DNA from: an uncultured Clostridia bacterium
GTDB lineage: Bacteria > Bacillota > Clostridia > TANB77 > UBA1234
Assembly (NCBI GenBank): GCA_934132775.1
Contig: CAKPAA010000006.1
Span: forward strand, 1,983 to 65,982
Direction of reading: 5' to 3'
Length of the DNA stretch: 64,000 nucleotides
Below are positions 199-35,642 of this stretch, one piece after another. Position 1 is the stretch's first letter. Each line of letters starts with the position of its first letter. The position numbers and the translations under genes are program-made. The notes beneath the pieces are model-generated. The model was not told the DNA's origin, did not search any database, and saw only the letters and a list, made by a program, of their open reading frames with translations.

Positions 199-972
199 TT
201 ACAATCTAAATTCATATGTTAATACTCTATCTTCCTCGGTCTTTTCTATACTAAAAGTTTTTGGAAATGTAATTGAAGTATCAAACTCTATTTCAAAATC
301 TAACTTTTGATTAGGAGCAATTGAAAACGAAGCATTCTCAGCATTATAAACTCCATCCTTAGTTGATGTCATGCTAGCAGAAGAAATCTTAATATCTGAC
401 TTCGACTTGTTTTCTATGGTAATATCAAACAAACACTTATTAACAGTAACTTTGTAGCCATTTACTATGTAATTAACGTTCCTTTTTTTAATACTTTCGT
501 CAACTTTTGAATAAGTAATAAAGTCATCTGGCGTTATAGTAGAATTTTTTTCACCAATAATTATCAAAAACGGCTGTGTAAGTTCATCTGAAAATTTTAA
601 TTTTATCATATACATATTTCTAGTTAAATTAACTAAACTTTCAACAGAATATGTTGAAAAATCAAGCTTGCTCATTTTCTCAACAAACTCTTCATAAGAT
701 ACATACTCATTATACTCTGGTGTGTTATAACTATATGCTTTTTCATAATTTTTCTCGCGTAGCTCTTTTAAATATGGTCCAATAGTTTTTTCAATTATAT
801 ATTTATAATCTAGCATAGTTATACTGCCGCCAGTATTTTTATCTCCTATTCTCTTCTCAATGCTATAATTTTCATCAAGAAAACTTGAAGATACCTTGAA
901 AAAAATCAACGCAATCAGAGAAATTAGCATAATGATAAATAGTATAGTTAAAAATATTTTCTTTGCTTTCAT
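199..972 (-). CDS. hypothetical membrane-anchored protein (single N-terminal TM helix, extracytoplasmic domain)
   Basis: Full-length ORF with hydrophobic N-terminus (FLTILFIIMLISLIALIFF). Lies 20 nt downstream of the preceding gene on the same strand, consistent with an operon with 993..1853 and 1873..7641. No recognisable catalytic motif. Confidence 0.5.
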   Translation of the reverse strand: MKAKKIFLTILFIIMLISLIALIFFKVSSSFLDENYSIEKRIGDKNTGGSITMLDYKYIIEKTIGPYLKELREKNYEKAYSYNTPEYNEYVSYEEFVEKMSKLDFSTYSVESLVNLTRNMYMIKLKFSDELTQPFLIIIGEKNSTITPDDFITYSKVDESIKKRNVNYIVNGYKVTVNKCLFDITIENKSKSDIKISSASMTSTKDGVYNAENASFSIAPNQKLDFEIEFDTSITFPKTFSIEKTEEDRVLTYEFRL

Positions 973-992
973 CTAAAATTACATTCCTTTCT

Positions 993-1853
993 CTACTCAA
1001 AGTATTCCTCTTGTATTACAATTGTTTGACCACTTATTATGCTGCCACTATTATTCTTCAAAGCTACATCAATATATAAATCTTCTGCATATGCAATGCT
1101 TTCTCTATTTTTAATAATAAAATTAACTCTTGTCGTTTCAGCTGGTGCAAGTTTAATATTTAAAGAATCATTAGCTTCTGATTTATACATCTTTCTATCT
1201 GTTCTATAAATATACGTATCTTCAAAAGAACCTTCAATCGCTTTGTTACTTACATTTTTTACTTCAACAGAATAAACTTTATATCCAGAATACTTAACTT
1301 CATACAACATCTTAAAACTTATGTTATTATCTACATAATTACTAGTTGCATCACTTGTAGTCAATGAAATTATATTATCGAACATAACACTATAACTTCC
1401 ATCAGAATTTTCGCTAATTACGATATCTTTAACACTCATAGATCCATTTCCTGAAACAGATATACTACAAGAATATTTGCCAAAACTTTCAACATAACTC
1501 ATCAAAGAAGCTGTATCAAAGTTTCCAAAATAGCTGTCAATTTGAGCCTTTAAATCTTCCTCAGATTTAATTTGTTTAAAGTCTTTATATGTTGGATCTA
1601 GGAGACTATAAAGAGTTTTATAGTCTCCGCTTTTAATATAGTCCAAAACTTCTTTTACAGATTTATCAATAAATGAATCAGTAACATATTCTTGCGAAGC
1701 TTCATATGCAGCTTGTTCTTTTTTTAGTTCAAAACTGTTTTTAACGTGTTCTGTTACTTTTGCAGTTCCTCTAATTGCATTTTCAAGCAAAATCAAGATT
1801 ACAACTATCATTAAAAATATTAAAATTCCTTTAATAATCTTCTTTTTATCCAT
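993..1853 (-). CDS. hypothetical membrane-anchored protein (N-terminal TM helix), architecture similar to 199..972
   Basis: ORF with N-terminal TM (ILIFLMIVVILILL) followed by a Ser/Asn/Tyr-rich soluble domain. Tightly spaced between the giant gene and 199..972. Confidence 0.5.
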   Translation of the reverse strand: MDKKKIIKGILIFLMIVVILILLENAIRGTAKVTEHVKNSFELKKEQAAYEASQEYVTDSFIDKSVKEVLDYIKSGDYKTLYSLLDPTYKDFKQIKSEEDLKAQIDSYFGNFDTASLMSYVESFGKYSCSISVSGNGSMSVKDIVISENSDGSYSVMFDNIISLTTSDATSNYVDNNISFKMLYEVKYSGYKVYSVEVKNVSNKAIEGSFEDTYIYRTDRKMYKSEANDSLNIKLAPAETTRVNFIIKNRESIAYAEDLYIDVALKNNSGSIISGQTIVIQEEYFE

Positions 1854-1872
1854 TTATTTTCCTCCAATTTAG

Positions 1873-4800
1873 TTACTGGTTATCAGGAACCTGAGCTAAC
1901 ATATAATTAAGCACTCCATTTTGATATGGCGGAATTCCACTAGCAGACTTAGCACCATCGTCATAATGCAAGTTCGCAAAAGCAGCAAAAGTACTATGTA
2001 CATTTTTACCGTGAGGTCCTTGGTTATACATCGCCGAAGCCGTTAAATATGTAATTAAAGTTTCTGGGGACATACCTAATCTTTTAGCAACTTTCTTCCA
2101 TTCTGAACTTTGGGCCATATCTTTTATTTCTGCATAGCTTACAGCTTTATCATACTTGCCAGCATAAATTCCATTTATTATGTTTTTAATATAACTTGCA
2201 GCCGTCAAAGCATTTGTATATGGTGTTCTCATCATTGATATCATAGTTTCAGTATCAGTTATTCCCATACTTCTATATATACCAATAGCCGTCGATGGTA
2301 ACAATTGCATTACGCCTTGAGCTCTTCTCAAATTCTTTAAACGTCCACCATAAGAGTATTGAAGTCCTGCTGCCTTAGCATCGCCTCTAGCCTTTCCCTT
2401 TGGAATTTCGTGTGATTCAATTCCAGGTTGGAATCCTGATTCTGCGTTTCCTGCAATACCCATAATAAATGTTGGATCTAAACCAGCCACAACAGCTGCC
2501 ATATAAGTTGCTTTCATTCCAACATCCTTTGCATTACTTAAAGTACCGTACACAACATACATATTATAATAACAAACATAATGTATAGAAAAGTTATCAG
2601 TAGATGATATTCTTCCCAAGTTTCCGGCTTCAACTCCTGTTGGAAAACCGGCTGCACTTAAAATTGGGACTAACTTTTCTTCTATAACTTTAGCCATATT
2701 TTCATCGTAGTCACCACTCATTATATTGTCACCACTTGATATAATTCCCTTTGCTTTAAATGACTGTTGAAGTTGAACAAGGTCTGTTATCATTCCGCCT
2801 GGATACTTGTTGTCAGTTGTAAATACAGTCGTACTAACTGGTCCATCATAAAAACCAACTACAAGTGGATTTTCTATATCTGCAAATCTAAGCAATAGCC
2901 CAGCAGGAAGTTGTAACCTTTTTTGTGCTAATGCACTATTTATATCGAAAAATGCTGACTGAGCTCTAACGTCGTAACCACCGTAACCTTCCAAATCTAT
3001 TCCTGGATCGGTCGCTTCTCCAAATGGTTCATAAGTTTTCTCTGCTGTTATTGATGCTGCACTTACTGCCATTTTAATGTCAGGAACAAGTGGCTCTATT
3101 GGTACGTTATTTCCCCATACTACACCAGCACCAGCATAACTAGATTCATCAGTTTGCACTGAAATTCCACCAACTCCAATGTTAGTCAAATTAACTTGTT
3201 CTGCACTAATTACTTCTGCTAAAATTCTTGTACTCGATTCAGGTAAATAATTAGAATTATTAGCACCACTACCAGAAAAATCTCCTGAGTCTGAATCATT
3301 TTGTGATGTGCTATCTTCTAGTAATTTCAATGAACATTGCCAATATTTAGGATCTAGTACCCCTTCTTTAATAATATATTTTTTGTTTTCGCCATCATTT
3401 TGTACATAGAAAAATGCACTTGCACTTACAGAGGTTGCAATATCCGATTCGTTAAAAACAACATATCTAGTTCCATCTCCACTTGTATAAAAAGCCGCTG
3501 AACGTAAGAAAGTAAGATCTCTGTTTCCTAGTTGTTGGCCATCTGAATATAACTCTTGTCCATCAGCAACATTTTGTAATAAAACAGTTCTCATTAAAGA
3601 ATAATATTCTGAAGCTAAAATAGCATTCTTATTACCATTTGCATTTGTGCGTACTTCTAATGCTTTTTCTTGATTATAGAATGGACTAAATATAGGTGCA
3701 AAATATTTTGAAGGGCTCTGCATTTCTCCATTGACCTTAACTCCCATATGTAAGTGGTATCCACCACTGTTACCTGTTGTTCCTTCATAACCAACAATAG
3801 TTCCAGCTCCAACAATGTCACCAACTTGTACATTAGGCCATCTCTTCATATGAACGTAGTGAGTTGTAACTGTATAGTTATCACTTATTGTATGCAAAAC
3901 ATTTACACAGAAACCACTGTAACAGTTGTATTCAGCTTTTATTACAATTCCAGGCGCTGCTGAAACTAAAGGCGACATCTTTGAATATTCAGTTAATTCT
4001 GCATTTAGCTCCGATTCAGCAAATGAGTATTTCTTCGTAGTCGTTCTAAGGCTGTTTAAAAAGGCGTCGCTAGCTGTTAAGGTGTTTCCATTATTGATTT
4101 TTCTTCTTGCTTTCATTTGTTTCAAGGCATATGTATATACGTCGCCTGCTACTCCTGCTTCGTGTTTTAAAATTTTCTTTATAACTGCACGACCAGTCCA
4201 GTCAGCACCAGCGTGACCATTTTTAAATCCTCCTCCATAGAACTTGCCAGTTTCAAGAGCGTTCATCATGTAATACGTTCTAATATAAGGACTTCCGAAT
4301 GGGAATAATCCATATACTGCTGCAACTCCTCTACTTGAATTTACGCATTCAGGATAACTTTGATAATCAACTACTTGCCAGTATATATTATCTTTCTTCG
4401 TTCTCATTCGTTTTTGTTCTGCCTGTGTCAGCGCATCTCCTTGTCCAGTTCCCTCAGCAGCGAGTCGCTCCGTCCAAAATGCCATCTGGGTTATTCCGTC
4501 ATCAAAATCCCAAACGGAATCATCCAAATACATGTATGTATAGCCCGTTTTCAGTATTCCATCATTTTGCCTTATACACATAATAAGCTTATATAAGTCT
4601 CTCATAAAGGCATACGCCGTTTCAGAGCCCTCTGCATATTTCTCCCAAGCTAGTAGCATATTCATCGAATCAGATTCTTTTATTGCATACTTATCTACCG
4701 CTACATTAGAAAAATATTTACTAAACATTTTAACTCTGTATTGTGACTGCTCACTTATTTGAAATACTCTAACACCAAAACTAAAATATGAATGTGGTAT

Positions 4801-7641
4801 AACATATCTATAATTATCAGGTACAAATGGATTTTGTACAATTTGAATGTTATACGATGTAGATTTTGCCCAGCTTTGTGCTTCTGTAACAAGCATTACA
4901 GACATTCTTTTTTGTGGCACATTCATCGTTAATGTAACTGTTTCTTCATCTATTGCAAATACACCTTTTTCTGGGAAGTCAGCAGCTAATTTATATTCCG
5001 GTTGTGTGCCATCTGCAAATCCTACTATTCTTACTCCAGTAATCTCAACATCTCCAATTATTTTTGCATTTTTTGGTAAATCACCTTTCACAACATCTTC
5101 AAGATCTGGTTTATTAGACTCAGCAATGCCATACACCTTATCTCTAAATTTTTCGTTATTATCCATCAAATCAGTTGATCTGCCTAAAATCGCTTCATTA
5201 AAATGTCCTCTTATACTGTCTTTTGCTTCGTCTTCAACACCTAAAATAGCAAAATAGTAGAATGGGAATTTTTGATGGTATCCCTCTAAATCACTTAATG
5301 GCTTACCTGCTACACTAGTTCCACCACCAGCTGCTGGTTTTTCTGCTACGCCACCTTCTTGAGTCCATTTGTACAAATAATTCGCAAACTTTCTCGTTTG
5401 ACGATCCTGAACAAACATTTCTGCCGCCTTAATATTAGGATTGTCATTAAACTGGCTTTCTGCATTTTTTATAGCCTCTCTGAAGAAATAATCAGATAAC
5501 GTGTCTCTTGCTTCTTCATTATCAGATACCTCCTCCCAGTTGTATTCAATATTGAAATCAGATGTTCCTATTCCCGATCCATAAACCGTTCTTGATCCAC
5601 TAGAACCCAATGTATATGTTGTACTGTTCGAAGCCAAGTTGACTTTTTTGCCTAAAACTATGCACTTTGCTCCATTGTAAACAATAGTCTCGCCAACTGA
5701 ATATTTTGTCCCTAAATCACCCTCTTCTTCGATAGTAAATGGTGCAATTAATATCTTGTCGTCATCAACCTTAAAGCTATTATCATCATTTTTTTCATTT
5801 TCATCATTTTTATCATCCTTACTTGTAGTGTTATTCTTCTTAGGAATCGTATATTGGTAACTATATGAATAATCAAATTCAACTTTAAGTTGATATTTTT
5901 GCAAAAATTCTGCATTCACTGATAAGAAATCTGTAACAACTGGAACGACTTCTTCAACTTCTGTTCCCGTTACTTCTGAATTTGTACAACCAGGTCCTAA
6001 TTCTCCTTTGCTAGATAATGCTGCAAAGTCGTACATTTCGAAAACACTAAATCTATTTGATTGTAAGCCTGCCTGTCCAAATTTTAGAAAAGTTTGTTCA
6101 TTTGTTGCAGCAAATGTTTTCATTTCGTCAGCCATTTCTGCATTGCCATCGCTGTCTCTTTTTATTTTACCATATTCATCATATTGAACTGATAGCACAG
6201 TTTCATCTCCTGCAGTCTCGCCATTTAAGCAATAATAATTATATATTGTCTTTATGTCCTGCATCATACTTTTTACTGCAAAACTATAAGAATCTTCTTC
6301 ACCATCTTTTCCTAATTCATCAGAATCTTTTATTGTATACCAAGCCGTTAGCAAACTTGACTTCGGCATATACCTATCTATCAATTGTTCCAAAGGAAAT
6401 TTATAAGCTGTAGAGCCACCGGTATTTGTGTAGTATAAAACTGGTGGAAATTCTTCATCTGCAATTGGCCAATTTTTAGAATCCGCATAGTTAGTTATAG
6501 AACCATCTAAGTTTAATTTTTCTCCATCGTCTCCCAGCTTAATTCTCATAACATCATTTGCAACATCAATGCTCTTAGGCAGATATGGATTAAACATATT
6601 AAGTAGCATATTAGCCTGCATAAGCTTTAAACTACCAATGTTTGATGAGTTAATTGCTACTCCAGAGTTTTCTGTATTAGTTGATTTGGCTCCTCCTTTT
6701 TCATATTGTTGTCTTATTGCATTTGTTGCTTCTTTTCCTTCTCCAATTTGTTTGTTATCTCCTACATTTTCAAAAGCATAATATCTATATTTATTTTCTT
6801 CTCTTAAAACTGTTATATATGGCACCAAGGAACCCGCACCATCTTCATACGGCTGTGATTTATATTCGTATGTCAATAGTGGTGGAAAACAACCTAAATC
6901 TCCTCCCATTGCTGTGTAACCAGTTCCTTCTAGCCCAACCTCTGCTGGACTCTTCAAACCAAATCTTGCAGAATTTTGACCTGCAATAACGGCTTTCATC
7001 CAGTTATCATGTGTAATTAAAGACATATCATACTCTACCTTTACAGGTAAATATGGCATATATTTAGGTGAAGCAGCTTTTGTACTTTTTGTGTTTCCAC
7101 CATTTCCATTACTCTTACTAGTAGTATCTTTCTGAATTGGTCCAACAAACGTATCATCTTTTTCTTTTGATGTTGATGCACTCTTATCACCAGAAAATCC
7201 AACACCAGATTTTACGTTTACTACATCATATGAACTCTTATCTCCCGCAAGATACTTATTCTGCCCCTCATATATATACTCAGCCACATCAATGAGCACC
7301 GAATATTCATAAGCATGAAACTCTTGCCAATTTTTTTCACTTATAAAAGATGAGTAACCAGCATAACCAATAGAACCAACCAGTACCTCATAGTCAGCAT
7401 CTGTTGAAATTCCTGCATACTCAACATTAAAATGTTTTGCTATGGCGTGCTGTGCTGTTCCTACAACTACAAGCATAACTAAAATTATAATCATAACAGA
7501 TATAAGCGTCGATACGACGAAACCAACACCTGATAAAAAGAACTTGACTGTTTTTACGGCTCTTTTTATTGTTTTCTTAAATCCGTTATATACTTTTTTT
7601 ATTCCATCTACGACACCATTTACTTGTTCCAAAAAACTCAT
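1873..7641 (-). CDS. giant (about 1920 aa) membrane-anchored peptidoglycan hydrolase with peptidase M23 (LytM-like) and C-terminal lytic transglycosylase (SLT) domains
   Basis: Single uninterrupted ORF. N-terminal TM (FFLSGVGFVVSTLISVMIIILVMLVVV). M23 motifs HYVHMK...GYHLHMG around residue 1270. SLT motifs AESGF and MQLLPSTA near the C-terminus. GGAGG RBS is 10 nt before the ATG that gives MSFLEQ, so the start is probably 7641 rather than 7650. Confidence 0.8.
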   Translation of the reverse strand: MSFLEQVNGVVDGIKKVYNGFKKTIKRAVKTVKFFLSGVGFVVSTLISVMIIILVMLVVVGTAQHAIAKHFNVEYAGISTDADYEVLVGSIGYAGYSSFISEKNWQEFHAYEYSVLIDVAEYIYEGQNKYLAGDKSSYDVVNVKSGVGFSGDKSASTSKEKDDTFVGPIQKDTTSKSNGNGGNTKSTKAASPKYMPYLPVKVEYDMSLITHDNWMKAVIAGQNSARFGLKSPAEVGLEGTGYTAMGGDLGCFPPLLTYEYKSQPYEDGAGSLVPYITVLREENKYRYYAFENVGDNKQIGEGKEATNAIRQQYEKGGAKSTNTENSGVAINSSNIGSLKLMQANMLLNMFNPYLPKSIDVANDVMRIKLGDDGEKLNLDGSITNYADSKNWPIADEEFPPVLYYTNTGGSTAYKFPLEQLIDRYMPKSSLLTAWYTIKDSDELGKDGEEDSYSFAVKSMMQDIKTIYNYYCLNGETAGDETVLSVQYDEYGKIKRDSDGNAEMADEMKTFAATNEQTFLKFGQAGLQSNRFSVFEMYDFAALSSKGELGPGCTNSEVTGTEVEEVVPVVTDFLSVNAEFLQKYQLKVEFDYSYSYQYTIPKKNNTTSKDDKNDENEKNDDNSFKVDDDKILIAPFTIEEEGDLGTKYSVGETIVYNGAKCIVLGKKVNLASNSTTYTLGSSGSRTVYGSGIGTSDFNIEYNWEEVSDNEEARDTLSDYFFREAIKNAESQFNDNPNIKAAEMFVQDRQTRKFANYLYKWTQEGGVAEKPAAGGGTSVAGKPLSDLEGYHQKFPFYYFAILGVEDEAKDSIRGHFNEAILGRSTDLMDNNEKFRDKVYGIAESNKPDLEDVVKGDLPKNAKIIGDVEITGVRIVGFADGTQPEYKLAADFPEKGVFAIDEETVTLTMNVPQKRMSVMLVTEAQSWAKSTSYNIQIVQNPFVPDNYRYVIPHSYFSFGVRVFQISEQSQYRVKMFSKYFSNVAVDKYAIKESDSMNMLLAWEKYAEGSETAYAFMRDLYKLIMCIRQNDGILKTGYTYMYLDDSVWDFDDGITQMAFWTERLAAEGTGQGDALTQAEQKRMRTKKDNIYWQVVDYQSYPECVNSSRGVAAVYGLFPFGSPYIRTYYMMNALETGKFYGGGFKNGHAGADWTGRAVIKKILKHEAGVAGDVYTYALKQMKARRKINNGNTLTASDAFLNSLRTTTKKYSFAESELNAELTEYSKMSPLVSAAPGIVIKAEYNCYSGFCVNVLHTISDNYTVTTHYVHMKRWPNVQVGDIVGAGTIVGYEGTTGNSGGYHLHMGVKVNGEMQSPSKYFAPIFSPFYNQEKALEVRTNANGNKNAILASEYYSLMRTVLLQNVADGQELYSDGQQLGNRDLTFLRSAAFYTSGDGTRYVVFNESDIATSVSASAFFYVQNDGENKKYIIKEGVLDPKYWQCSLKLLEDSTSQNDSDSGDFSGSGANNSNYLPESSTRILAEVISAEQVNLTNIGVGGISVQTDESSYAGAGVVWGNNVPIEPLVPDIKMAVSAASITAEKTYEPFGEATDPGIDLEGYGGYDVRAQSAFFDINSALAQKRLQLPAGLLLRFADIENPLVVGFYDGPVSTTVFTTDNKYPGGMITDLVQLQQSFKAKGIISSGDNIMSGDYDENMAKVIEEKLVPILSAAGFPTGVEAGNLGRISSTDNFSIHYVCYYNMYVVYGTLSNAKDVGMKATYMAAVVAGLDPTFIMGIAGNAESGFQPGIESHEIPKGKARGDAKAAGLQYSYGGRLKNLRRAQGVMQLLPSTAIGIYRSMGITDTETMISMMRTPYTNALTAASYIKNIINGIYAGKYDKAVSYAEIKDMAQSSEWKKVAKRLGMSPETLITYLTASAMYNQGPHGKNVHSTFAAFANLHYDDGAKSASGIPPYQNGVLNYMLAQVPDNQ

Positions 7642-7788
7642 AAGGTTCATACCTCCTCATTACACTTATTTTAATTTTACCTTAAAAAGCCCAAAGTATC
7701 AACAAAAAACTAAAAATATTCTGTGAATTTTTTCTTTTTGATTATATTTGTTTATTTTTGAGTAAATACTATTTTTCGAGGTGATTTT

Positions 7789-8701
7789 ATGAATTTTGGT
7801 ATAAGAACGGATTTAGCATTAGAAACACGTGAAATCTACAAAAAAGCACAAAACATCGAAGACGAAGTGCCTGGCGTTGAAACAATTATTGATGATTCAG
7901 ATAGTGATTTTTTATTTACTCACGTAAAAATTGTATCTGATGAAGGAGCTTCTGCCCTTGGAAAACCTATTGGTGACTATATTACAATAGAGTCAAAATA
8001 TATGAATGATGAAGTTGAAAATATTGATGAAAAGATAATCAAAAGAATGGCAAATGTTATTAAAGATATTTCACATATGGTAAAGAAAGATTCTGTTTTA
8101 GTTGTCGGGCTTGGAAATGAGGATGTAACTCCGGATGCTCTTGGCCCAAAAGTTGTTGATAGTTTGAGTATTACAAGACATCTTTTGCAATACGCTCCTG
8201 AACTTGTTGGCGAAAACACTAGGGCTGTTAGTGCTATTGTGCCTGGTGTGCTTGGCACAACTGGTATTGAAACTGGTGATATTATAAAAGGAATTGTAGA
8301 GAAAATAAATCCTGATTTTGTTATTGTGGTTGATGCTTTGGCAGCAAAAGATATGAATAGAATTAGTAGAACTATTCAAATAAGTAATACAGGAATAACA
8401 CCTCGGTTCAGGTGTTAAAAATAATAGATTTTCTATAACTAAGGATTCTCTTGGCATTCCCGTTATAGCTATTGGAGTGCCAACAGTTGTGGGCGTGCCA
8501 ACCATTGTAAATGAGGCTATTTCTTATGTTTCAGATAAGTTTCCTGATGTGAAAGAGCCTTTGGAAAATAAGAACTATATGCAAGAAATCCTTGAAAATA
8601 AAGACTTTGATTTTATGGTTACTCCTAATGATATTGACGATATAATAACAAATATATCTAACCTTGTAGCCGAAGGTATAAACACCGCACTACAAAATTA
8701 G
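7789..8701 (+). pseudogene. gpr: germination protease Gpr (spore protease), reading frame interrupted by a 1-nt insertion near 8404
   Basis: N-terminus MNFGIRTDLALE matches the Gpr N-terminus. ORF 7789..8418 ends ...ISNTGITPRFRC*. The +1 frame continues GSGVKNNRFSITKDSLGIPVIAIGVPTVV, the conserved Gpr core, into ORF 8477..8701. Deleting the c at 8404 (cct c ggt) restores ...ITPGSGV... Convergent with holA, a conserved gene neighbour. Confidence 0.8.
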
Positions 8702-27986: not shown

Positions 27987-28020
27987 AACAACCACAGATT
28001 TTTTAATCTGTGGTTGTTAT
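27987..28020 (+). terminator. stem-loop terminator after the GC-rich gene (AACAACCACAGAT/ATCTGTGGTTGTT)
   Basis: Perfect 13-bp inverted repeat immediately after the stop codon. The downstream T-run is weak. Confidence 0.5.
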
Positions 28021-28083
28021 CTTTACTGCACAAAGTGATTATAACAAAATTAAACTTTTAATATAAATTATTTAATACCATCA

Positions 28084-28587
28084 CTATTGTTGTTGATTTT
28101 CACTTATTACTTCTGCACTTTCAGTTTTTCCTGCTTTTTGATATTCATCTTTATTGAAACCTAAAATCATTAGGAATATTGGTTGCATAAAGAATAACCC
28201 TGTTGCAAATGCTCCACCGTGTCCAAAAGCTTTAGACAAACCATCACAGAATTTGCAATTAACGGCTATAAAATATATTAAATATATTAAATACAACAAT
28301 GCCGTTATTATTCCTAAAATTCCACTTGATGTAGCAGCTGCAATACTACCTAAAACAATAGATAATACAACTACAATTGCAGTAGCAACTACAAGTTCTA
28401 TAAAATTTCTGCCAGCAATTTTCCAAAGAATATAAGCATTATAAAAAGGAATAAGACTCTTCCATCCCTCTTCGCCTGCTTTTTCAAAAATCTTCCACTG
28501 TCCAATAACTAATGCAACATAAAAAAGTGTTGCAAACGTACTGTTTCCACCTAAAAACATTCCCATTAAATTTGAGCCATCGATCAT
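28084..28587 (-). CDS. hypothetical small membrane protein (3-4 TM helices)
   Basis: AAGGGGGAG RBS 6 nt upstream of the ATG giving MIDGSNL. Hydrophobic segments with WKIFEKAGEEGWKSLIPFYNAYILWKIAGR. Confidence 0.6.
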   Translation of the reverse strand: MIDGSNLMGMFLGGNSTFATLFYVALVIGQWKIFEKAGEEGWKSLIPFYNAYILWKIAGRNFIELVVATAIVVVLSIVLGSIAAATSSGILGIITALLYLIYLIYFIAVNCKFCDGLSKAFGHGGAFATGLFFMQPIFLMILGFNKDEYQKAGKTESAEVISENQQQ

Positions 28588-28651
28588 AAAATTCTCCCCC
28601 TTAATATCTTTTGTTATAAACACATTTTAATTTTATATAAACTGAAACTTC

Positions 28652-28680
28652 TTGTCAATATTTGGCGAAAGATTAAATTA
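28652..28680 (+). promoter_or_regulatory. putative promoter (TTGTCA-16/17-TAAATT) for orphan plus-strand transcript
   Basis: -35 TTGTCA at 28652. -10-like TAAATT. Located between two minus-strand genes. Confidence 0.35.
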
Positions 28681-28684
28681 GGCT

Positions 28685-28806
28685 TTTCTAAAATTTATAC
28701 TTCCAGTTCATCTAGCAGTTGCTTGTCCAGCGATGACTCATCCGGTCGTTGCTCTGGTGGTAGCGGGGGTAACTCTTGGTAATATACTTTTAACCACATA
28801 AATAGC
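28685..28806 (+). ncRNA. candidate small RNA or type-I-toxin-like sORF: GC-rich (about 55%) 90-nt segment between a promoter and an intrinsic terminator
   Basis: Segment catctagcagttgcttgtccagcgatgactcatccggtcgttgctctggtggtagcgggggtaactcttgg is much more GC-rich than its surroundings. Contains a 22-codon ORF with no SD (ATG 28734). Contains GGTGGTAGCGGGGG, resembling the T-box core. No long ATG-initiated ORF. Confidence 0.3.
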
Positions 28807-28855
28807 AAAGGCGAAAACTAAAAGTAGTTTTCGCCTTTATAACATTATTTTTTTC
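28807..28855 (+). terminator. rho-independent terminator (AAAGGCGAAAACTA/TAGTTTTCGCCTTT + T-run)
   Basis: Perfect 14-bp stem, 4-nt loop, then ataacattattttttt. The T-rich tail is on the plus strand only. Confidence 0.75.
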
Positions 28856-28937
28856 TACGTTCAGCGATTTGAAAAAGGACAAGACTCGTCCATACTCCAA
28901 TATCAAAGAAACAAAAATTCATTTAGCCAAAATAGTT

Positions 28938-29876
28938 CTATGCTGCACTAAAGCAAATAGTAAATTTTCTTCCATCAAAAAGATCTGGAGGAATTACAAG
29001 TTTAATTGGTATATGACTTATACTCTTATACTCCGCAATACTGTTTCTGTCATCTTCTCCATTTGGCCTCAAAACAGCATTGCTTATTTTTTCCCTTGCA
29101 TCACTGCATTTTTTCAGACTGCCGACAGCCTCTTTACCACTACTTGTGGAATTATCGCAATGGACAGAAACTGGCTTTGCTCTTTCAGAAATCTTTTCAC
29201 AAGCTGCAGGAACAGCAATTGAACTAGTCACTTTCTCTTTACGAAGTCTCCTATGATGCCTACAAAGAGTCTGATTTTCAGTATTAGTCTTTTCAGACAT
29301 TTCCTGTGTGGAAAGATCGGTAACCGTTTGCATATTTTCATTCTTTTCATGAGCATCATCATAAGATTTAGAAATAACAGATTGCCCTTCTTCTACTTTC
29401 TCACTAGGTTCTACCTTCTCACAATGATTTTCAAAAGTGGCAATATCTTCAAAACTAATGTGACGAACATATCTACGGCGTTTAGGCAAATCTATTGCAT
29501 CAACTACATTTGTAGCACTTTTCAAATTACATTCCGAAGGACTTTTAGGAGTATTAATACACATTATTCCAACTTCATCCTTAAAGAGTTCATCGGGTTT
29601 CATATTATCTTCATATTCTTCTTCATCTTCAACGTCATCTTCGACACCATAAATTTCTCTTCTAATTTTTCTCATTTTCATCTTTAAAAGAAAAGATTTT
29701 ACGTCTAATCCTTCAAAAAGCATATACATGCTGGTAGCAAAAAGATACAATGTGCCTAAATTAAGAACGAAAGCATACTTATCAGACAAATTGATAGCCG
29801 TAGAAATCCACATCATCATCGCGCAATAAAGCAACATGGAAACAGCAAAAATAGATTCCTTTTTATTATTACTCAT
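28938..29876 (-). CDS. hypothetical membrane protein (two N-terminal TM helices, acidic/Cys-containing C-terminal region), moderately GC-enriched
   Basis: AGGAGAA RBS 9 nt upstream of the ATG giving MSNNKK. TM segments IFAVSMLLYCAMMMWISTAI and AFVLNLGTLYLFATSMYMLF. About 38% GC. Confidence 0.55.
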   Translation of the reverse strand: MSNNKKESIFAVSMLLYCAMMMWISTAINLSDKYAFVLNLGTLYLFATSMYMLFEGLDVKSFLLKMKMRKIRREIYGVEDDVEDEEEYEDNMKPDELFKDEVGIMCINTPKSPSECNLKSATNVVDAIDLPKRRRYVRHISFEDIATFENHCEKVEPSEKVEEGQSVISKSYDDAHEKNENMQTVTDLSTQEMSEKTNTENQTLCRHHRRLRKEKVTSSIAVPAACEKISERAKPVSVHCDNSTSSGKEAVGSLKKCSDAREKISNAVLRPNGEDDRNSIAEYKSISHIPIKLVIPPDLFDGRKFTICFSAA

Positions 29877-30171
29877 AAATATCATTTCTCCTATTTTTAT
29901 TAACAATTCTTAGTTAATGCTTCTGACAACCAAAGTTTTATTACTTTTTTAAATAGGTTTTATAGTCTATTGTGAAATCGATATATATTTTTAAAATCCG
30001 CATCAGTCCATCTCTAATAAAAAATACAAACAGTAAGGTTAAATCTATATAAATTGCTAATCAGTAGCGCCTTTGCACCGATTGCAAGTAAAATTATTAA
30101 AACATTATTTGGCTTATTCAAGGTTGGTAAAAACACCTACCTTATGTAAAACTAATAAAAATAACAGTAAA

Positions 30172-30200
30172 CAGTATAATATGGTTTATGTAAATTGTCA
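30172..30200 (-). promoter_or_regulatory. sigmaA-type promoter P4 (TTGACA-17-TATACT) with TTTACATAAA spacer motif, pointing at 28938..29876 through a roughly 290-nt structured leader
   Basis: Minus-strand sequence TTGACA atttacataaaccatat TATACT. The leader contains a second TTTTACATAAGG copy and the hairpin AAGGTAGGTGTTTTTACCAACCTT. Confidence 0.55.
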
Positions 30201-30227
30201 ACCATAAAAACAAGTATTCGCAGATGA

Positions 30228-30282
30228 AACATAAAACATAAAACTAACAAGAATGTCTAGATTTCTGTTGATGTTTTATGTT
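30228..30282 (+). promoter_or_regulatory. operator-like inverted repeat AACATAAAACAT-N31-ATGTTTTATGTT overlapping the -35 of the 30385 gene promoter
   Basis: Perfect 12-bp arms. Central XbaI-like palindrome tctaga. The right arm abuts TGcTATAAT (30288-30296). Confidence 0.5.
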
Positions 30283-30296
30283 AATTGTGCTATAAT
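30283..30296 (+). promoter_or_regulatory. extended -10 promoter (TGcTATAAT) for gene 30385..30645
   Basis: TGTGCTATAAT with a weak -35. Followed by the 5' UTR hairpin CGGAGGcacggtCCTCCG (30344-30361) and an AAGAGGAGG RBS. Confidence 0.5.
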
Positions 30297-30384
30297 TAGA
30301 CTGTGTTTATAGACATTTGTATACCTTTGAAATGATTCTATTTCGGAGGCACGGTCCTCCGAAAATAAGAGGAGGAAAAAAACA

Positions 30385-30645
30385 ATGAAAAAATTTGCAA
30401 TCGACCTTAATTCAAAAGTAAAAGTTAAATTAACGAAAGCCGGAGTGGATGTGCTTCGCACACATTATATGATGTATAGACTTCCAGGCGCTCCGCAATT
30501 TAAAGTGTACACTGACAAGGATGGTTACTATGTAGCTACACTTTGGCAGCTTATGAATGCTTTTGGTGGATGTATGCTCTTAAACTCACCTTCTCTTTTC
30601 GAAGGTGATCTTGTCTTAATTGATGAGGATCAGTTCAAAGACTAA
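30385..30645 (+). CDS. hypothetical small protein (86 aa)
   Basis: Strong RBS AAGAGGAGG 8 nt upstream of the ATG. ORF followed by an intrinsic terminator. No recognisable domain. Confidence 0.6.
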   Translation: MKKFAIDLNSKVKVKLTKAGVDVLRTHYMMYRLPGAPQFKVYTDKDGYYVATLWQLMNAFGGCMLLNSPSLFEGDLVLIDEDQFKD

Positions 30646-30652
30646 AATGTAA

Positions 30653-30692
30653 TCGCCTAGTTAGCTTTATATGCTGACTAGGCGAACTTTTT
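30653..30692 (+). terminator. intrinsic terminator (TCGCCTAGT...ACTAGGCGA + TTTTT)
   Basis: 9-bp stem with a 15-nt loop, then actttttaa. Confidence 0.6.
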
Positions 30693-30896
30693 AATAAATT
30701 TAAAATTATTTTAAATGGAGCGATTTCGAAACAGGTATGCGAAAAAATGACTTACTTTGTTTCAAGCACTCTTATATAATTCGATTTATTGTTTATAATT
30801 TAACATAAATTATATCTTTTTACAAGATATAAAAATAAAAAACAGGAAAATTTTTTTTTACAAATTAATTATTATTTCAAAAAGGAGGTTATAATA

Positions 30897-31692
30897 TGCC
30901 AGAATTAAATGTTTTAAATCAAAAGATAACTTATATAAAAATTGATGATGAAGATTATATATCTATTACAGATATGCTTAAATCAAAAGATGGGGATTTT
31001 TTGTATCAGACTGGCTAAGAAATAGGAATACCATTGAATTTTTAGGCATTTGGGAAGAAATTCATAATCCTAATTTTAATTATGGCGAATTCGCCATAAT
31101 TAAAAGTCAAGCAGGTTTAAATAGCTATAAAATTAGTGTTAAAGAATGGACAGAAAAAACAAATGCAATTGGAATAATTTCAAAAGCTGGAAGATATGGA
31201 GGAACATATGCTCATAAAGATATTGCTTTTGAGTTTGGTATGTGGATTAGTCCAAAATTCAAGCTGTTATTGATAAAAGAATTTGAAAGATTAAAAGCAG
31301 AAGAACAAAAGCAAATAGGCTGGAATGCTAAAAGAGAACTTTCAAAAATTAATTATAGAATACATACAGATGCTATAAAGAAGAATTTAGTACCTAAAGA
31401 ATTAACTAAATTTCAAATAAACTTTGTTTATGCTGAAGAAGCAGATGTTTTAAATATGGCTTTATTTGGTATGACTGCAAAGGAATGGCATGATAAAAAT
31501 CCTAATTTAAATGGGAATATAAGAGATTATGCAACAATGAATGAATTGATATGCTTAGCAAATTTGGAAAATTTAAATTCTGTTTTTATAAATGAAAGAT
31601 TAAAACAAAGTGAAAGGCTTGAAAAATTAAATAAAATTGCAATTTCACAAATGCAAATTTTAAATGATACAGATATAAAATATCTAAAATAA
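30897..31692 (+). pseudogene. KilA-N domain (phage antirepressor-like) protein, frameshifted in a poly-T run near 31000
   Basis: AGGAGG RBS then MPELNVLNQKITYIKIDDEDYISITDMLKSKDGDF, ending in a stop at 31016. The next frame continues SDWLRNRNTIEFLGIWEEIHNPNFNYGEFAIIKSQAGLNSYKISVKEWTEKTNAIGIISKAGRYGGTYAHKDIAFEFGMWISPKF... into ORF 31240..31692. One T is missing from the run gattttttg. Confidence 0.7.
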
Positions 31693-31760
31693 TTATATTA
31701 AAAAAGAAAACTCCCACTTAAGTGAGAGAAAGATATATCTTTTTTGATGATGGCTTAAGC

Positions 31761-32108
31761 TTACTTCATTGTTGCACCAGAAACATTTATTGCCATAGAG
31801 TCACGGAACTGAATCATATCTTCCATTGAGAAGAAACTGAGGTAAACCTTGAGCTTGTGGTCTGCGTTGTGCATTTCCACTAGGTTAGCATTGCAACAAG
31901 CTGCCCACTTTAGAAGTGCTCTTGCTCTGTCAAATTCAACCTGCTTTCTATGGTTACTCTCCTTATCTCTCTTGGAAATAAACGATTCTTCTGCTTCGCC
32001 GATGGTCTGGTTCTTTACGATGAGAATCGGAGATTCAAGTGGGATAGATACCACGAGAACATATTCCTCAACCTTGGGTTTGGGTGATAAAATCTTAATG
32101 ATTGCCAT
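31761..32108 (-). CDS. hypothetical protein, GC-rich (about 42%) orphan gene
   Basis: 115-aa ORF. CAAGGAGG RBS. Consensus-type promoter P2 upstream. No recognisable motif. Confidence 0.55.
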   Translation of the reverse strand: MAIIKILSPKPKVEEYVLVVSIPLESPILIVKNQTIGEAEESFISKRDKESNHRKQVEFDRARALLKWAACCNANLVEMHNADHKLKVYLSFFSMEDMIQFRDSMAINVSGATMK

Positions 32109-32194
32109 AGTAATTCCTCCTTGGGCAGTTGCCCTGTCTAAAGTTGATTTTTCCTACATGATGAAACGGAGACCAGATTAGTTCATCACCTATA

Positions 32195-32223
32195 ATTATA
32201 TCATATTTTACATAAAATTGCAA
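32195..32223 (-). promoter_or_regulatory. sigmaA-type promoter P2 (TTGCAA-17-TATAAT with TGn extension), spacer carries TTATGTAAA motif
   Basis: Minus-strand sequence TTGCAA ttttatgtaaaatatga TATAAT. 12 of 17 spacer positions are identical to P1, including the 9-mer TTATGTAAA and tga before the -10. Confidence 0.65.
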
Positions 32224-32402
32224 TGAATTTTTTCGTTTGTACCCATTTTTGAACTAATTTATGTCAGATATCTCTAGTTTGTCTTATATTGAATTTTATT
32301 TTATTAGTAAATTTTCTAATAATAAATTTAAACACAAAAAAAGGGCGCACTAACCCTATTACAACCTCATGTGTCTTTTAATTTTATTTACGCTACTAAA
32401 CT

Positions 32403-33053
32403 TCATATATTTTCTTGTTTATTCTTTATATGTCCTTTTGCTATTGTTAGCATTACTATAAATGTTAGATTTAACATTATTTTCATACCTCTTTTACAAT
32501 TTTCTATTACTGGAACACCAATAACATGCATATGTGGAGATGTTTCATCAAAATGTATTGTTGCATTAGCTATTTTAAAAGTAGGTAGTATTTTAGATAA
32601 ATCTTGAATTTGCTCATTATATACATCAGTCATTTTAAATCTATATTCATCATCTTTATCTTGCCAAAAGTCCATATCTCCAAGTTCTATAATAATTTCA
32701 CAGGCAATATCATTTTGAGAATTACAAACTTTTTGAAAGTAATCTTTAACTTGTCTATCAGCTCTTGTCTTGCTATTATATTCAATTCTAATTTTTTCGA
32801 ATTCATCTAAATAGACTTGTTTAACATCTTCTACAATATCATTAGTTTCATAAATAGTAGTAATTAAATCTCTTTGATTATCGTAATCTCGTAAATTGTG
32901 TTTATTTACTCTTGGTAAATCATTTGCATTTTGAATAGCATTATTTGAAAGGGAAGTAGTTCCAGATACATTTCCTTTAGCTGTTTTTTTTGCTATTTTA
33001 CTTTTATTCTTATCACTACCCAAGTGAAAAGAATAGGCTAATTCTTGTTCCAT
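32403..33053 (-). pseudogene. mob: MobV-family (Pre/Mob) relaxase, truncated after the relaxase domain (about 217 aa instead of about 400-500)
   Basis: KHNLRDYDN, ACEIIIELGDMDFW and ATIHFDETSPHMHVIGVPV match MobM motifs I-III (HxDExxPHxH). AAGGAGGTG RBS before the ATG giving MEQELAYS. The ORF ends about 30 aa after motif III with non-Mob sequence. Confidence 0.65.
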
Positions 33054-33086
33054 TAAACGCACCTCCTTGAACTTTCTTCGAAGCAC

Positions 33087-33200
33087 AGGACTTTGACTTT
33101 GTCATAAGTCCTAACCTCCTATGAGTTATGACGTGCCATCATAACTCGGGGGCTCTGCGAGTCAATAAATTTTCTCCCAATGGGATAAAATTTATTCAAA
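33087..33200. promoter_or_regulatory. oriT-like region upstream of mob: adjacent hairpins AGGACTT-N12-AAGTCCT and GAGTTATGA-N7-TCATAACTC
   Basis: Two perfect inverted repeats immediately 5' of the mob start, as in pMV158-type oriT. Further downstream are TTGCAACA direct repeats (33262-33292). Confidence 0.5.
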
Positions 33201-33300
33201 TTACCTCACACAAAATTTATATTGCTAACGCAAATATAAATTTGTATTCGCCAATTTGCTTGTTGCAACATTGCATATAAAAAAGTAATAGTTGCAACAA

Positions 33301-35157
<1,857 letters not shown>

Positions 35158-35278
35158 TTTTCCATTTACAACCTCCTAAAAAAAAAACAAAGTGCTAGAA
35201 AGCCTTTGCTAACTAACACTTAAAAAATCTAATATTTACTTGTTATATTACTTGCTAAAAACAAAAAATCTTTTAGTA

Positions 35279-35575: not shown

Positions 35576-35615
35576 TATTTTGAGGCTATTTTTCTACTTT
35601 ATGAAAATTTAAGGT

Positions 35616-35642
35616 AAAAAAATAAGCCGACTAAATCGACTT
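35616..35642 (-). terminator. intrinsic terminator downstream of tRNA-Thr (AAGTCGA-tttag-TCGGCTT + T7)
   Basis: 7-bp stem with one G-U pair, followed by ATTTTTTT on the minus strand. Confidence 0.5.

What the first reader, a model, noticed from the sequence alone, without database searches (positions are those of the whole stretch)
199..7650. Three-gene operon encoding a roughly 1920-aa membrane-anchored M23 peptidase + lytic transglycosylase protein and two membrane-anchored partner proteins, divergent from gpr
The giant protein has an N-terminal TM anchor, then about 1200 aa of G/S/T/N/Y-rich sequence with an acidic KNDENEKNDDN stretch. This is followed by a LytM/M23 metallopeptidase domain (HYVHMK...GYHLHMG) and a C-terminal SLT domain with the catalytic AESGF motif. 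The two downstream genes are similar to each other in architecture (N-terminal TM plus a beta-rich soluble domain). The neighbourhood has no phage tail, conjugation or secretion ATPase genes, so tape-measure or VirB1-like roles are not supported by context. The operon sits where spoIIP lies next to gpr in Bacillus/Clostridium, and spoIID-like and spoIIM genes are present in the window. A dual glycan-strand plus peptide cross-link hydrolase anchored in the membrane could be a sporulation or cell-separation cell-wall remodelling machine. GC content of the gene (about 38-40%) is somewhat above background.
Basis: partly seen in the sequence, partly recalled or inferred. Interest (0 to 1): 0.55.

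Follow-up and report, generated by a model that had tools for sequence, protein, structure and literature searches.

The report
Giant membrane-anchored cell-wall hydrolase operon
An uncultured group of gut Clostridia carries a conserved chromosomal operon for a 1,900-residue membrane-anchored enzyme that should cut both the sugar strands and the peptide cross-links of the cell wall, plus two related helper proteins. It sits where the sporulation gene spoIIP normally lies, but it appears to be switched on by an ordinary housekeeping promoter.

Summary
Three tightly packed minus-strand genes (1873-7650, 993-1853, 199-972) encode a 1922/1925-aa single-pass membrane protein and two single-pass partners. 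The large protein has an M23 peptidase domain with all catalytic residues and an SLT domain with all its motifs.

- The N-terminal ~1100 aa is not a spacer. It consists of conserved modules under strong purifying selection.
- GC is 35.7%, not 38-40%.
- The two partners are distant paralogs.

The operon is core chromosome, not mobile. About 20 contigs from uncultured gut Clostridia share the order spoIID...ruvC-holA-gpr | giant-P1-P2-rpsO-pnp, down to 31% identity. Nothing beyond the ~90-aa M23 core matches phages or plasmids. Distant relatives carry other hydrolase domains and sit either directly downstream of gpr, in the classical spoIIP slot, or between rpmA and obg.

A sigmaA-type promoter (TTGAnn-17-TAnAAT) is conserved upstream of the gene. 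gpr is broken in three lineages where the giant gene is intact.

Best reading: a clade-specific self-wall remodelling complex, probably vegetative. Main rival: in-situ replacement of SpoIIP in engulfment. This could not be tested because whole genomes could not be searched for spoIIP.

The parts
7674..7702 (-). SigmaA-type promoter of the operon: -35 TTGATA (7702-7697), 17-nt spacer, -10 TAAAAT (7679-7674).
   Evidence: Consensus scan gives 10/12 matches. The same TTGAnn-17-TAnAAT element lies at a comparable distance from the start codon in 13 of the 15 loci scored and in 16 of the 19 upstream regions inspected. These include the distant L023 and L025.
7652..7658 (-). Ribosome-binding site GAGGAGG. 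It lies 10 nt before the second ATG (7641), the likely true start.
   Evidence: Sequence. All homologs start MSFLE.
1873..7650 (-). Giant gene: 1925 aa from the first ATG, 1922 aa from ATG 7641. Single-pass (N-in) membrane-anchored peptidoglycan hydrolase.
7453..7539 (-). Transmembrane helix (about residues 38-66), preceded by a Lys-rich cytoplasmic tail (residues 1-37, nt 7540-7650).
   Evidence: Hydropathy peak 3.17. It is the only TM in the protein.
5851..7443 (-). Conserved N-terminal ectodomain modules (residues ~70-600). No known family.
   Evidence: Many invariant residues. dN/dS 0.109. No Pfam or PDB hits. The first ~125 residues recur in other proteins.
4951..5850 (-). Variable region (residues ~600-900), including the lineage-specific acidic KNDENEKNDDN insert.
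   Evidence: Lowest conservation. dN/dS 0.32. Alignment gaps in distant homologs.
4219..4950 (-). 'Pre-M23' module (residues ~900-1144), the most conserved part of the protein. In distant relatives it always lies directly upstream of the M23 domain.
   Evidence: dN/dS 0.043. Conservation 0.66-0.73. Profile positions ~835-1097 hit about 50 large M23 proteins.
3691..4218 (-). M23/LytM metallopeptidase domain (residues ~1145-1320). HxGxD (1146-1150) is separated from the core (1224-1313) by a ~75-aa insert.
   Evidence: Pfam E 4.6e-13. Aligns to lysostaphin, LytM, TagE and ShyA. Zn and catalytic residues are invariant.
2551..3690 (-). Linker region (residues ~1321-1700). It contains a possible PG_binding_1-like segment at about residues 1615-1665.
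   Evidence: Moderately conserved. One homolog gives a weak PG_binding_1 hit (E 0.0099); its placement at residues ~1615-1665 is my reading of the alignment and was not reported by the tool.
2011..2508 (-). SLT (family-1 lytic-transglycosylase-type) domain (residues ~1715-1880).
   Evidence: Pfam 25.9 bits against a 21.3 cutoff. 10 of 17 homologs hit. The E-S, GxMQ and YNxG motifs are invariant.
993..1853 (-). Partner P1 (286 aa): N-terminal TM, an alpha/beta (NTF2-like) domain and a beta-sandwich.
   Evidence: Co-conserved in the 20 loci that extend past the giant gene (21 of the loci carry the operon). Paralog of P2. Weak DUF3887 hits in 6 of 14 members. dN/dS 0.10.
199..972 (-). Partner P2 (257 aa): N-terminal TM helix, an NTF2-like alpha/beta domain (~53-147) and a DUF4352-like Ig-type beta-sandwich (~151-256).
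   Evidence: AlphaFold2 pLDDT 90. Foldseek gives only generic Ig-like/DUF4352 matches. Weak MecA_N, DUF4864 and DUF4878 hits. The family has only 24 clusters.
7789..8701 (+). Divergent neighbour gpr (germination protease). In this window it is broken by a 1-nt insertion near 8403.
   Evidence: Split ORFs. Alignment to the 97%-identical intact gene in L001. Peptidase_A25 in orthologous loci.

Best explanation
This is a vertically inherited three-gene operon specific to one clade of uncultured low-GC gut Clostridia.

The first gene encodes a type-II (N-in) single-pass membrane protein with an ectodomain of about 1860 aa. The ectodomain carries, in order:
- roughly 1100 aa of conserved modules with no known relatives;
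- an M23 metallo-endopeptidase with a complete zinc/catalytic set, which should cut peptide cross-links;
- a possible peptidoglycan-binding segment;
- an SLT-type domain with all family-1 motifs, which should cut the MurNAc-GlcNAc glycan bond.

The two downstream genes are paralogs. Each is a single-pass membrane protein with an NTF2-like domain and an Ig-like ectodomain. I infer that they bind the conserved non-catalytic modules of the giant protein and position or restrain it. This would resemble other Firmicute hydrolase plus membrane-partner pairs.

The operon is read from a conserved sigmaA-type promoter. I therefore infer that the complex works on the cell's own wall during growth and division, for example in septum splitting, daughter-cell separation or wall turnover, and not only during sporulation.

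Shown: gene structure, domains, catalytic residues, paralogy, synteny, purifying selection, promoter conservation and the absence of mobile-element context.

Inferred: enzymatic activities, complex formation, timing of expression and the cellular process.
For: - Domains and motifs.
- Topology.
- Core-chromosome synteny (spoIID-ROK-murB-cofD-GDE-ruvC-holA-gpr | giant-P1-P2-rpsO-pnp) in about 20 loci down to 31% identity.
- Giant plus P1/P2-like partners stay together in distant relatives and at a second housekeeping location (rplU-rpmA ... obg).
- Purifying selection over the whole length (dN/dS 0.157; 0.043 in the pre-M23 module).
- Native composition (GC3 within the range of neighbouring genes).
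- Conserved TTGAnn-17-TAnAAT promoter. SigmaE/F/G/K consensus matches are no better than shuffles. gpr and spoIIM show forespore- and sigmaE-like motifs as internal controls.
- gpr is frameshifted or fragmented in the window, in L006/L007 and in L018, while the 5.5-5.8 kb giant ORF and both partners are intact.
- Partner structure.
Against: - Promoter assignment is a sequence inference. In AT-rich DNA the per-sequence score is only modestly better than shuffles (mean 2.6 vs 3.25 mismatches). Its weight comes from positional conservation.
- SigmaA promoters can still be developmentally regulated.
- The locus occupies exactly the slot of another wall hydrolase, spoIIP, next to gpr. In two distant subfamilies it is co-directional with and downstream of gpr. 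This is hard to dismiss as coincidence.
- No SpoIIP was seen in any fetched locus.
- The gpr breaks could be assembly errors. Other genes in the window are also split.
- Nothing shows that P1 and P2 bind the giant protein.
- The N-terminal structure prediction failed (pLDDT 38.7).
Confidence: 0.5

Rival explanations
1. In-situ non-orthologous replacement of SpoIIP. In this clade the giant hydrolase, with P1 and P2, would have taken over the peptide-cutting role of SpoIIP in the SpoIID-SpoIIM-SpoIIP engulfment machine. It would act at the sporulation septum together with the SpoIID and SpoIIM encoded nearby.
For: - gpr-spoIIP is a widely conserved operon in Bacillus and Clostridium (PMC3416734; C. 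difficile CD2470-CD2468, PMC3789822).
- Here the gene next to gpr is the giant hydrolase in all of the ~20 loci of the clade in which both flanks are present.
- In the distant relatives L023 and L025 it lies directly downstream of gpr on the same strand.
- No PF07454 (SpoIIP) product appears in any fetched neighbourhood.
- spoIID and spoIIM are present.
- SpoIIP is otherwise near-universal and considered indispensable in spore-formers (bioRxiv 10.1101/2022.02.25.481979).
Against: - The conserved promoter is sigmaA-type and no sigmaE/sigmaF motif is conserved.
- There is no SpoIIP-like domain by Pfam or NCBIfam.
- SpoIIP's essential activity is an amidase that denudes glycans for SpoIID (PMC6221140). 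An M23 endopeptidase does not supply this.
- Another branch of the family sits between rpmA and obg, away from gpr.
- The giant gene stays intact where gpr is degraded.
- Absence of spoIIP elsewhere in these genomes was not testable.
Confidence: 0.25
2. Exapted wall-breaching module of a mobile element. On this reading it is a domesticated descendant of a Gram-positive type IV secretion hydrolase plus VirB8-like partner (PrgK-PrgL type), or of a phage tape-measure lysin (CwlP type). It would now make local holes in the wall for some envelope-spanning structure.
For: - The architecture TM + LytM + SLT matches PrgK. PrgK binds PrgL (PMC11323569), which from my own knowledge is a single-pass VirB8-like protein with an NTF2-like fold.
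- P1 and P2 are TM + NTF2-like proteins.
- Distant relatives add glucosaminidase and CHAP domains, as mobile-element lysins do.
- The best phage hits of the M23 core are SPbeta/phi3T tape-measure/CwlP-type proteins.
- A prepilin peptidase gene is in the window at 49545-50243.
Against: - No VirB4/VirD4 ATPase, relaxase, tail or integrase genes lie next to the operon in any of about 25 loci.
- There is no similarity to phage or plasmid records outside ~90 aa of M23.
- P1 and P2 have no plasmid matches.
- There are no relatives in IMG/VR.
- Codon composition is native.
- The NTF2-like assignment is sub-threshold, and the fold is very common.
Confidence: 0.08
3. Spore-cortex lytic enzyme for germination. 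It would be functionally linked to gpr, with P1 and P2 playing a YpeB-like stabilising role as in SleB-YpeB.
For: Adjacency to the germination protease gene gpr. A glycan-cleaving SLT-type domain together with membrane-anchored partners is reminiscent of SleB-YpeB (established knowledge, not tested here).
Against: - SigmaA-type promoter instead of a sigmaG/sigmaE/sigmaK type.
- No SleB/CwlJ (Hydrolase_2) or PepSY domains.
- The gene is retained where gpr is broken.
- The size and the membrane anchor are unlike known cortex lytic enzymes.
Confidence: 0.05

Closest known systems
PrgK of Enterococcus faecalis plasmid pCF10 (Gram-positive T4SS VirB1-like hydrolase) with its partner PrgL
   Same: N-terminal membrane anchor followed by extracellular LytM/M23 and SLT domains. 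It works with a partner protein, PrgL (PMC11323569).
   Different: - PrgK is much smaller (about 870 aa, from my own knowledge), and its LytM domain is degenerate and metal-free (PMC11323569). Here all M23 zinc and catalytic residues are invariant.
- PrgK lies in a conjugation operon with ATPases. Here the context is core chromosome.
- There is no sequence similarity beyond generic domains.
- About 1100 aa of extra conserved sequence and two paralogous partners have no counterpart in PrgK.
CwlP (YomI) of Bacillus subtilis prophage SPbeta, and related tape-measure lysins
   Same: Very large protein combining a glycan-cleaving SLT-type domain with an M23 DD-endopeptidase (PMC9662197). It is the best phage match of the M23 core.
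   Different: - CwlP has the opposite domain order (from my own knowledge) and lies in a tail module (PMC9662197). Its lack of a membrane-anchor architecture is also from my own knowledge.
- Similarity is limited to ~83 aa at 39% identity.
- The N-terminal 1150 aa has no phage match.
SpoIIP (with SpoIID and SpoIIM), the engulfment hydrolase encoded downstream of gpr
   Same: Same genomic slot next to gpr. It is a membrane-anchored wall hydrolase that cuts peptide cross-links. spoIID and spoIIM are present in the same genome (PMC3416734, PMC6221140).
   Different: - No SpoIIP domain is detectable.
- The peptidase is of the M23 type rather than an amidase.
- An SLT domain is built in.
- It is about five times larger.
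- It has a sigmaA-type promoter rather than a sigmaE/sigmaF type.
Firmicute autolysin plus membrane-partner systems (FtsEX-CwlO/PcsB, SagB-SpdC, LytH-ActH); named from established knowledge, not tested here
   Same: A self-wall hydrolase whose activity or placement depends on dedicated membrane proteins encoded nearby or co-regulated with it. Vegetative expression.
   Different: The catalytic domains, partner folds (TM + NTF2-like + Ig-like) and size are all different. There is no ABC-type or polytopic partner. The interaction here is only inferred from co-conservation.

Membership tests
Peptidase M23 / LytM (PF01551) | Profile match above the curated threshold | tested here: met
   E 4.6e-13, 49.6 bits against a 28.7 cutoff. 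17 of 17 homologs match. PDB sequence hits to lysostaphin, LytM, TagE and ShyA.
Peptidase M23 / LytM (PF01551) | Zinc ligands and catalytic residues: HxxxD, a central His, and HxH | tested here: met
   H1146/D1150, H1267 and H1299/H1301 are invariant in 17 sequences. HLH aligns to lysostaphin HLH. The HxGxD motif lies 75 aa upstream of its usual place (an insert).
Peptidase M23 / LytM (PF01551) | Endopeptidase activity on peptidoglycan cross-links | not testable with these tools
   Needs purified protein and muropeptide analysis.
SLT / family-1 lytic transglycosylase (PF01464) | Profile match above the curated threshold | tested here: met
   25.9 bits against a 21.3 cutoff. 10 of 17 homologs match, best E 2.4e-9. 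There is no PDB sequence hit at E<=0.01.
SLT / family-1 lytic transglycosylase (PF01464) | Catalytic Glu-Ser, GLMQ-like and AYNxG-like motifs | tested here: met
   E1737-S1738, G1779..Q1782 and N1876-x-G1878 are invariant or nearly so.
SLT / family-1 lytic transglycosylase (PF01464) | Lytic transglycosylase (anhydro-MurNAc forming) chemistry rather than muramidase chemistry | not testable with these tools
   The SLT domain of PrgK proved to be a muramidase (PMC11323569), so the chemistry cannot be read from sequence.
SpoIIP (PF07454 / TIGR02867) | SpoIIP amidase-type catalytic domain | tested here: not met
   No Pfam hit at E<=0.1 and no NCBIfam hit at E<=0.01 in the window protein. No Pfam hit at E<=0.05 in 17 homologs.
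SpoIIP (PF07454 / TIGR02867) | Position adjacent to or downstream of gpr | tested here: met
   Divergent from gpr in the window clade. Directly downstream and co-directional in L023 and L025.
SpoIIP (PF07454 / TIGR02867) | Compartment-specific (sigmaE and/or sigmaF) promoter | tested here: not met
   The conserved element is TTGAnn-17-TAnAAT. SigmaE/F/G/K matches are no better than shuffles. This is a sequence inference only.
Phage tape-measure / virion-associated lysin (CwlP type) | Location in a tail-morphogenesis module, and similarity to phage proteins beyond the catalytic domain | tested here: not met
   No phage genes in about 25 loci. No IMG/VR relatives. The N-terminal 1150 aa gives no phage match. 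PHROG hits cover only the M23 region.
Gram-positive T4SS VirB1-like hydrolase (PrgK/TcpG/CwlT type) | Encoded in a conjugation cluster with VirB4/VirD4-type ATPases and a relaxase | tested here: not met
   The flanking genes are holA, gpr, rpsO and pnp, or rpmA and obg. No plasmid matches except the M23 core.
Gram-positive T4SS VirB1-like hydrolase (PrgK/TcpG/CwlT type) | VirB8-like (NTF2-fold) membrane partner | tested here: inconclusive
   P1 and P2 have a TM plus an alpha/beta domain with weak NTF2-family hits (MecA_N, DUF3887, DUF4864, DUF4878). There are no VirB8/TcpC hits and no plasmid matches.
SpoIIQ (forespore LytM protein) | About 280-aa TM + LytM protein under sigmaF, commonly near spoIID-spoIIID | tested here: not met
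   The protein is 1922 aa with an SLT domain, has a sigmaA-type promoter and lies six genes from spoIID.

The most novel reading that the evidence does not exclude
In this uncultured gut Clostridia lineage the near-universal engulfment hydrolase SpoIIP may have been displaced, in its own gpr-linked slot, by an unrelated giant membrane-anchored multi-hydrolase with two dedicated paralogous partners. If so, the conserved SpoIID-SpoIIM-SpoIIP engulfment machine would have a non-orthologous variant in which an M23 endopeptidase and a built-in glycan-cleaving domain do SpoIIP's job.
Probability: 0.2. Interest if true: 0.75.

Novelty: new variant of a known kind. Interest (0 to 1): 0.45.

Why it matters
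Multi-domain wall hydrolases that combine M23 and SLT domains are known from phages and conjugative plasmids. This one differs in several ways:
- It is a core chromosomal gene conserved across a clade.
- It carries about 1100 aa of strongly constrained sequence with no known relatives.
- It has two dedicated paralogous membrane partners.
- It sits exactly where spoIIP normally lies.

It defines at least three undescribed protein families: the giant N-terminal modules, the 'pre-M23' module, and the P1/P2 family. All are found only in uncultured gut and rumen Clostridia.

If it is the main autolysin of these organisms, it is a new model for how a hydrolase is tethered and controlled at the membrane. 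If it replaces SpoIIP, it would be a rare example of turnover in a core part of the endospore engulfment machine. Either outcome can be tested with a whole-genome spoIIP search, with metatranscriptomes and with in-vitro assays.

Tried and rejected
- **Prophage tail or tape-measure origin: rejected.** IMG/VR holds no relatives. tblastn of the N-terminal 1150 aa against 50,697 phage records gives no match. PHROG and phage hits cover only the M23 core.
- **Conjugative element: rejected as membership.** There is no plasmid match for the N-terminus, P1 or P2. No ATPase or relaxase lies near the operon in any locus.
- **Recent horizontal acquisition: rejected.** GC3 is within the native range and synteny is conserved to 31% identity.
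- **'Spacer' or low-complexity N-terminus: rejected**.
- **Structure of the N-terminal 1150 aa.** The AlphaFold2 model had pLDDT 38.7 from an 8-sequence alignment, so it is unusable and was not sent to Foldseek. A profile search of the PDB found nothing at E<=1.
- **Function of the partners from structure.** The P2 model is good (pLDDT 90). Foldseek against PDB and BFVD gave only generic Ig-like/DUF4352 matches with TM<=0.5. PDB profile searches for P1 and P2 gave nothing significant.
- **Regulatory RNA in the leader or downstream.** There are no Rfam hits in the window or in four related loci.
- **Spo0A boxes near the promoter.** I inspected the upstream sequences printed by eye and found none that are consistently conserved.
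- **Single-sequence sigma-factor scoring.** On its own it discriminates weakly in this AT-rich DNA. The argument rests on positional conservation.
- **Exact-sequence look-up of the window protein.** It is not on record. The 99%-identical P0001 was used instead.

Full report
**What is there**

Three co-directional ORFs lie on the minus strand: 1873..7650 (1925 aa), 993..1853 (286 aa) and 199..972 (257 aa). They are separated by 19-20 nt, and each is preceded by a Shine-Dalgarno-like sequence. All homologs of the large protein begin MSFLE, and GGAGG lies 10 nt before the second ATG. The real start is therefore probably 7641, giving 1922 aa.

Pfam places Peptidase_M23 at residues 1224-1313 (E 4.6e-13) and SLT at residues 1721-1845 (E 7.7e-6). 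Both are above the curated thresholds. NCBIfam and PHROGs hit only the M23 region. The protein has one hydrophobic segment at about residues 38-66 behind a Lys-rich tail, so it should be N-in with an ectodomain of about 1860 aa. Both small proteins have one N-terminal TM.

**Are the catalytic domains intact?**

In a 17-sequence alignment that spans 31-99% identity, the following M23 residues are invariant: H1146-x-G-x-D1150, H1267 and H1299-x-H1301. The same is true of the SLT motifs E1737-S, RRAQGxMQ and YNxG. The M23 core aligns to lysostaphin, LytM, TagE and ShyA, with the HLH motif in register.

The HxGxD motif lies about 75 residues upstream of its usual place. The domain therefore carries an insert between its first strand and the core. 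This explains why the Pfam match starts at profile position 12.

**The N-terminal 1150 aa is not a spacer**

This region contains more than 100 invariant positions. Conservation in blocks 51-150, 200-300, 400-600 and 900-1150 equals or exceeds that of the catalytic domains. Against the 77-81%-identical ortholog, dN/dS is 0.109 for residues 70-600 and 0.043 for residues 900-1150. It is 0.32 in the variable 600-900 stretch, which contains the acidic insert.

No Pfam family matches in any of 17 homologs, apart from one weak PG_binding_1 hit. A profile search of PDB sequences found nothing. An AlphaFold2 model built from the shallow alignment was unusable, with pLDDT 38.7.

**The partners**

P1 and P2 are distant paralogs (hhalign probability 97.5%, E 5.6e-12). 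A confident model of P2 (pLDDT 90) shows three parts: a TM helix, a helices-then-sheet domain at about residues 53-147, and a beta-sandwich at about residues 151-256.

Foldseek returns only generic Ig-like/DUF4352-type matches. Several family members give weak hits to NTF2-like families, namely MecA_N, DUF3887, DUF4864 and DUF4878. The P2 family comprises only 24 clusters among 5.8 billion proteins.

**Distribution and context**

The full-length family has 18 clusters at 90% identity. In GTDB species representatives it occurs in 11 MAGs labelled Clostridia bacterium or uncultured Eubacteriales, from human gut and from ruminants. None occur in IMG/VR.

Every locus of this clade has the same gene order: ychF-spoIID-ROK-murB-cofD-GDE-ruvC-holA-gpr(divergent) | giant-P1-P2-rpsO-pnp. 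This fills in the flank that the window lacks.

A profile of the N-terminal region against 1.84 billion representatives found 117 relatives. Many share only the 'pre-M23' module followed by M23, combined with other hydrolase domains. For example, P0079 carries SLT + M23 + glucosaminidase + CHAP. Their contexts are again housekeeping:
- holA>gpr>giant>...>rpsO, in L023 and L025.
- rplU-rpmA-giant-partner-obg, in L024, L026 and L022.

P1- and P2-like genes accompany the giant in L023, and a P1-like gene accompanies it in L024. The hydrolase-partner association therefore does not depend on location.

tblastn against phage and plasmid collections matches only about 90 aa of the M23 core. GC is 35.7% against 32.1% for the window, and GC3 falls inside the native range.

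**When is it expressed?**

The 138-nt region between the giant gene and gpr contains TTGATA-17-TAAAAT at 7702-7674. The same TTGAnn-17-TAnAAT element lies at a comparable distance from the start codon in almost all loci, although the surrounding sequence has diverged. This includes the distant L023 (TTGAAT-17-TATAAT) and L025 (TTGAAG-17-TATAAT).

I scored the B. subtilis sigmaE/F/G/K consensus sequences as tabulated in PMC3416734. They match no better than in shuffled sequence. As internal controls, gpr shows a forespore-type element at -45 to -48, for example GCATA-14-GGGAATAGTA in L010 and GAATA-17-AATAATA in L003. spoIIM shows a sigmaE-like element. This is inference from sequence, not measurement.

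**Independence from gpr**

gpr carries a 1-nt insertion at about 8403 in the window, relative to an intact 97%-identical copy. It is split in two in L006/L007 and in three in L018. In all of these the giant ORF and both partner genes are intact.

This fits a function that does not depend on spore germination. However, other split genes in the window show that assembly error cannot be excluded for the window itself.

**The spoIIP question**

gpr-spoIIP is a widely conserved operon (PMC3416734; C. difficile CD2470-2468, PMC3789822). SpoIIP is near-universal in spore-formers (bioRxiv 10.1101/2022.02.25.481979). Here the neighbour of gpr is a different wall hydrolase, no SpoIIP domain appears in any fetched locus, and spoIID and spoIIM are present.

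That positional coincidence is the main argument for a sporulation role. Four points count against it:
- The promoter is sigmaA-type.
- The operon supplies no amidase activity, which SpoIIP needs to provide for SpoIID (PMC6221140).
- Another branch of the family lies at rpmA-obg, away from gpr.
- The giant gene is retained where gpr is broken.

I could not search whole genomes for spoIIP, so this stays open.

**Verdict**

The most likely reading (about 0.5) is a clade-specific, membrane-tethered bifunctional peptidoglycan hydrolase with two paralogous membrane partners, acting on the cell's own wall under housekeeping transcription.

The main rival (about 0.25) is in-situ replacement of SpoIIP in engulfment. 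An exapted mobile-element wall-breaching module (PrgK/PrgL-like or CwlP-like) and a cortex-lytic role are minor alternatives.

This is a new variant of a known kind of enzyme. It contains three protein families without described relatives.

Noticed in passing
window 7789-8701 (indel near 8403); L006 8973-9870; L018 8966-9912: gpr is interrupted by a 1-nt insertion in the window (ACACCTCGG against ACACC-CGG in the 97%-identical L001). It is split into 2 ORFs in L006/L007 and into 3 in L018. This could be decay of a germination gene in several lineages, or assembly error.
   Followed up: partly
window ~28000-35800: Probable small integrated mobilisable element next to a tRNA gene (35730-35802). 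It carries a Mob_Pre relaxase-like ORF (32403-33086), a serine recombinase that appears split (33301-34990), a DUF5684 protein, several ORFs without Pfam hits, and a local GC-skew reversal at 30-32 kb.
   Followed up: partly
window 54139-56338: A heavy-metal P-type ATPase is split into two ORFs: E1-E2_ATPase + HMA, then a separate HAD part. This is another apparent frameshift in the window and bears on whether the gpr frameshift is real.
   Followed up: no
window 41661-42629 (+) and 41664-42557 (-): Two long ORFs overlap on opposite strands, between two class-II aaRS genes, in the most GC-rich kilobase of the window (38.5%). The minus-strand ORF has no Pfam hit and the region has no Rfam hit.
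   Followed up: no
window 3994-4218 (residues ~1145-1225 of the giant protein): The M23 domain is split. The invariant HxGxD zinc motif lies about 75 aa upstream of the rest of the domain, and the insert is predicted to be helical. It could be a lid or autoinhibitory element, as in latent LytM or ShyA.
   Followed up: partly
L024 683-7455; L026 5819-10508; L022 9977-16872: A second branch of the giant-hydrolase family, with a P1-like partner, sits between rplU-rpmA and obg. In Bacillus subtilis spo0B occupies that position. In L022 and L026 the gene is split into two ORFs.
   Followed up: partly
L010 9844-16016 (same in L011): In one species the giant gene is broken by at least two frameshifts: one in the TM region and one inside the pre-M23 module (FWTERLAAE|...). 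gpr is shortened there too. The contig has only 5x coverage, so this is either a pseudogene or sequencing error.
   Followed up: partly
window 45879-46028 and 7651-7788: Sporulation-type promoter motifs are recognisable. There is a sigmaE-like element upstream of spoIIM (TCTTATT-N13-CATAATAT by eye) and a sigmaF/G-like element upstream of gpr (TTATA-15-GTAAATACTA). This suggests that the compartment-specific sigma factors are, or were, in use in this organism.
   Followed up: partly
window 49545-50243: A prepilin (type IV leader) peptidase gene lies 42 kb from the operon. No other pilus or secretion genes were seen among the ORFs scanned.
   Followed up: no
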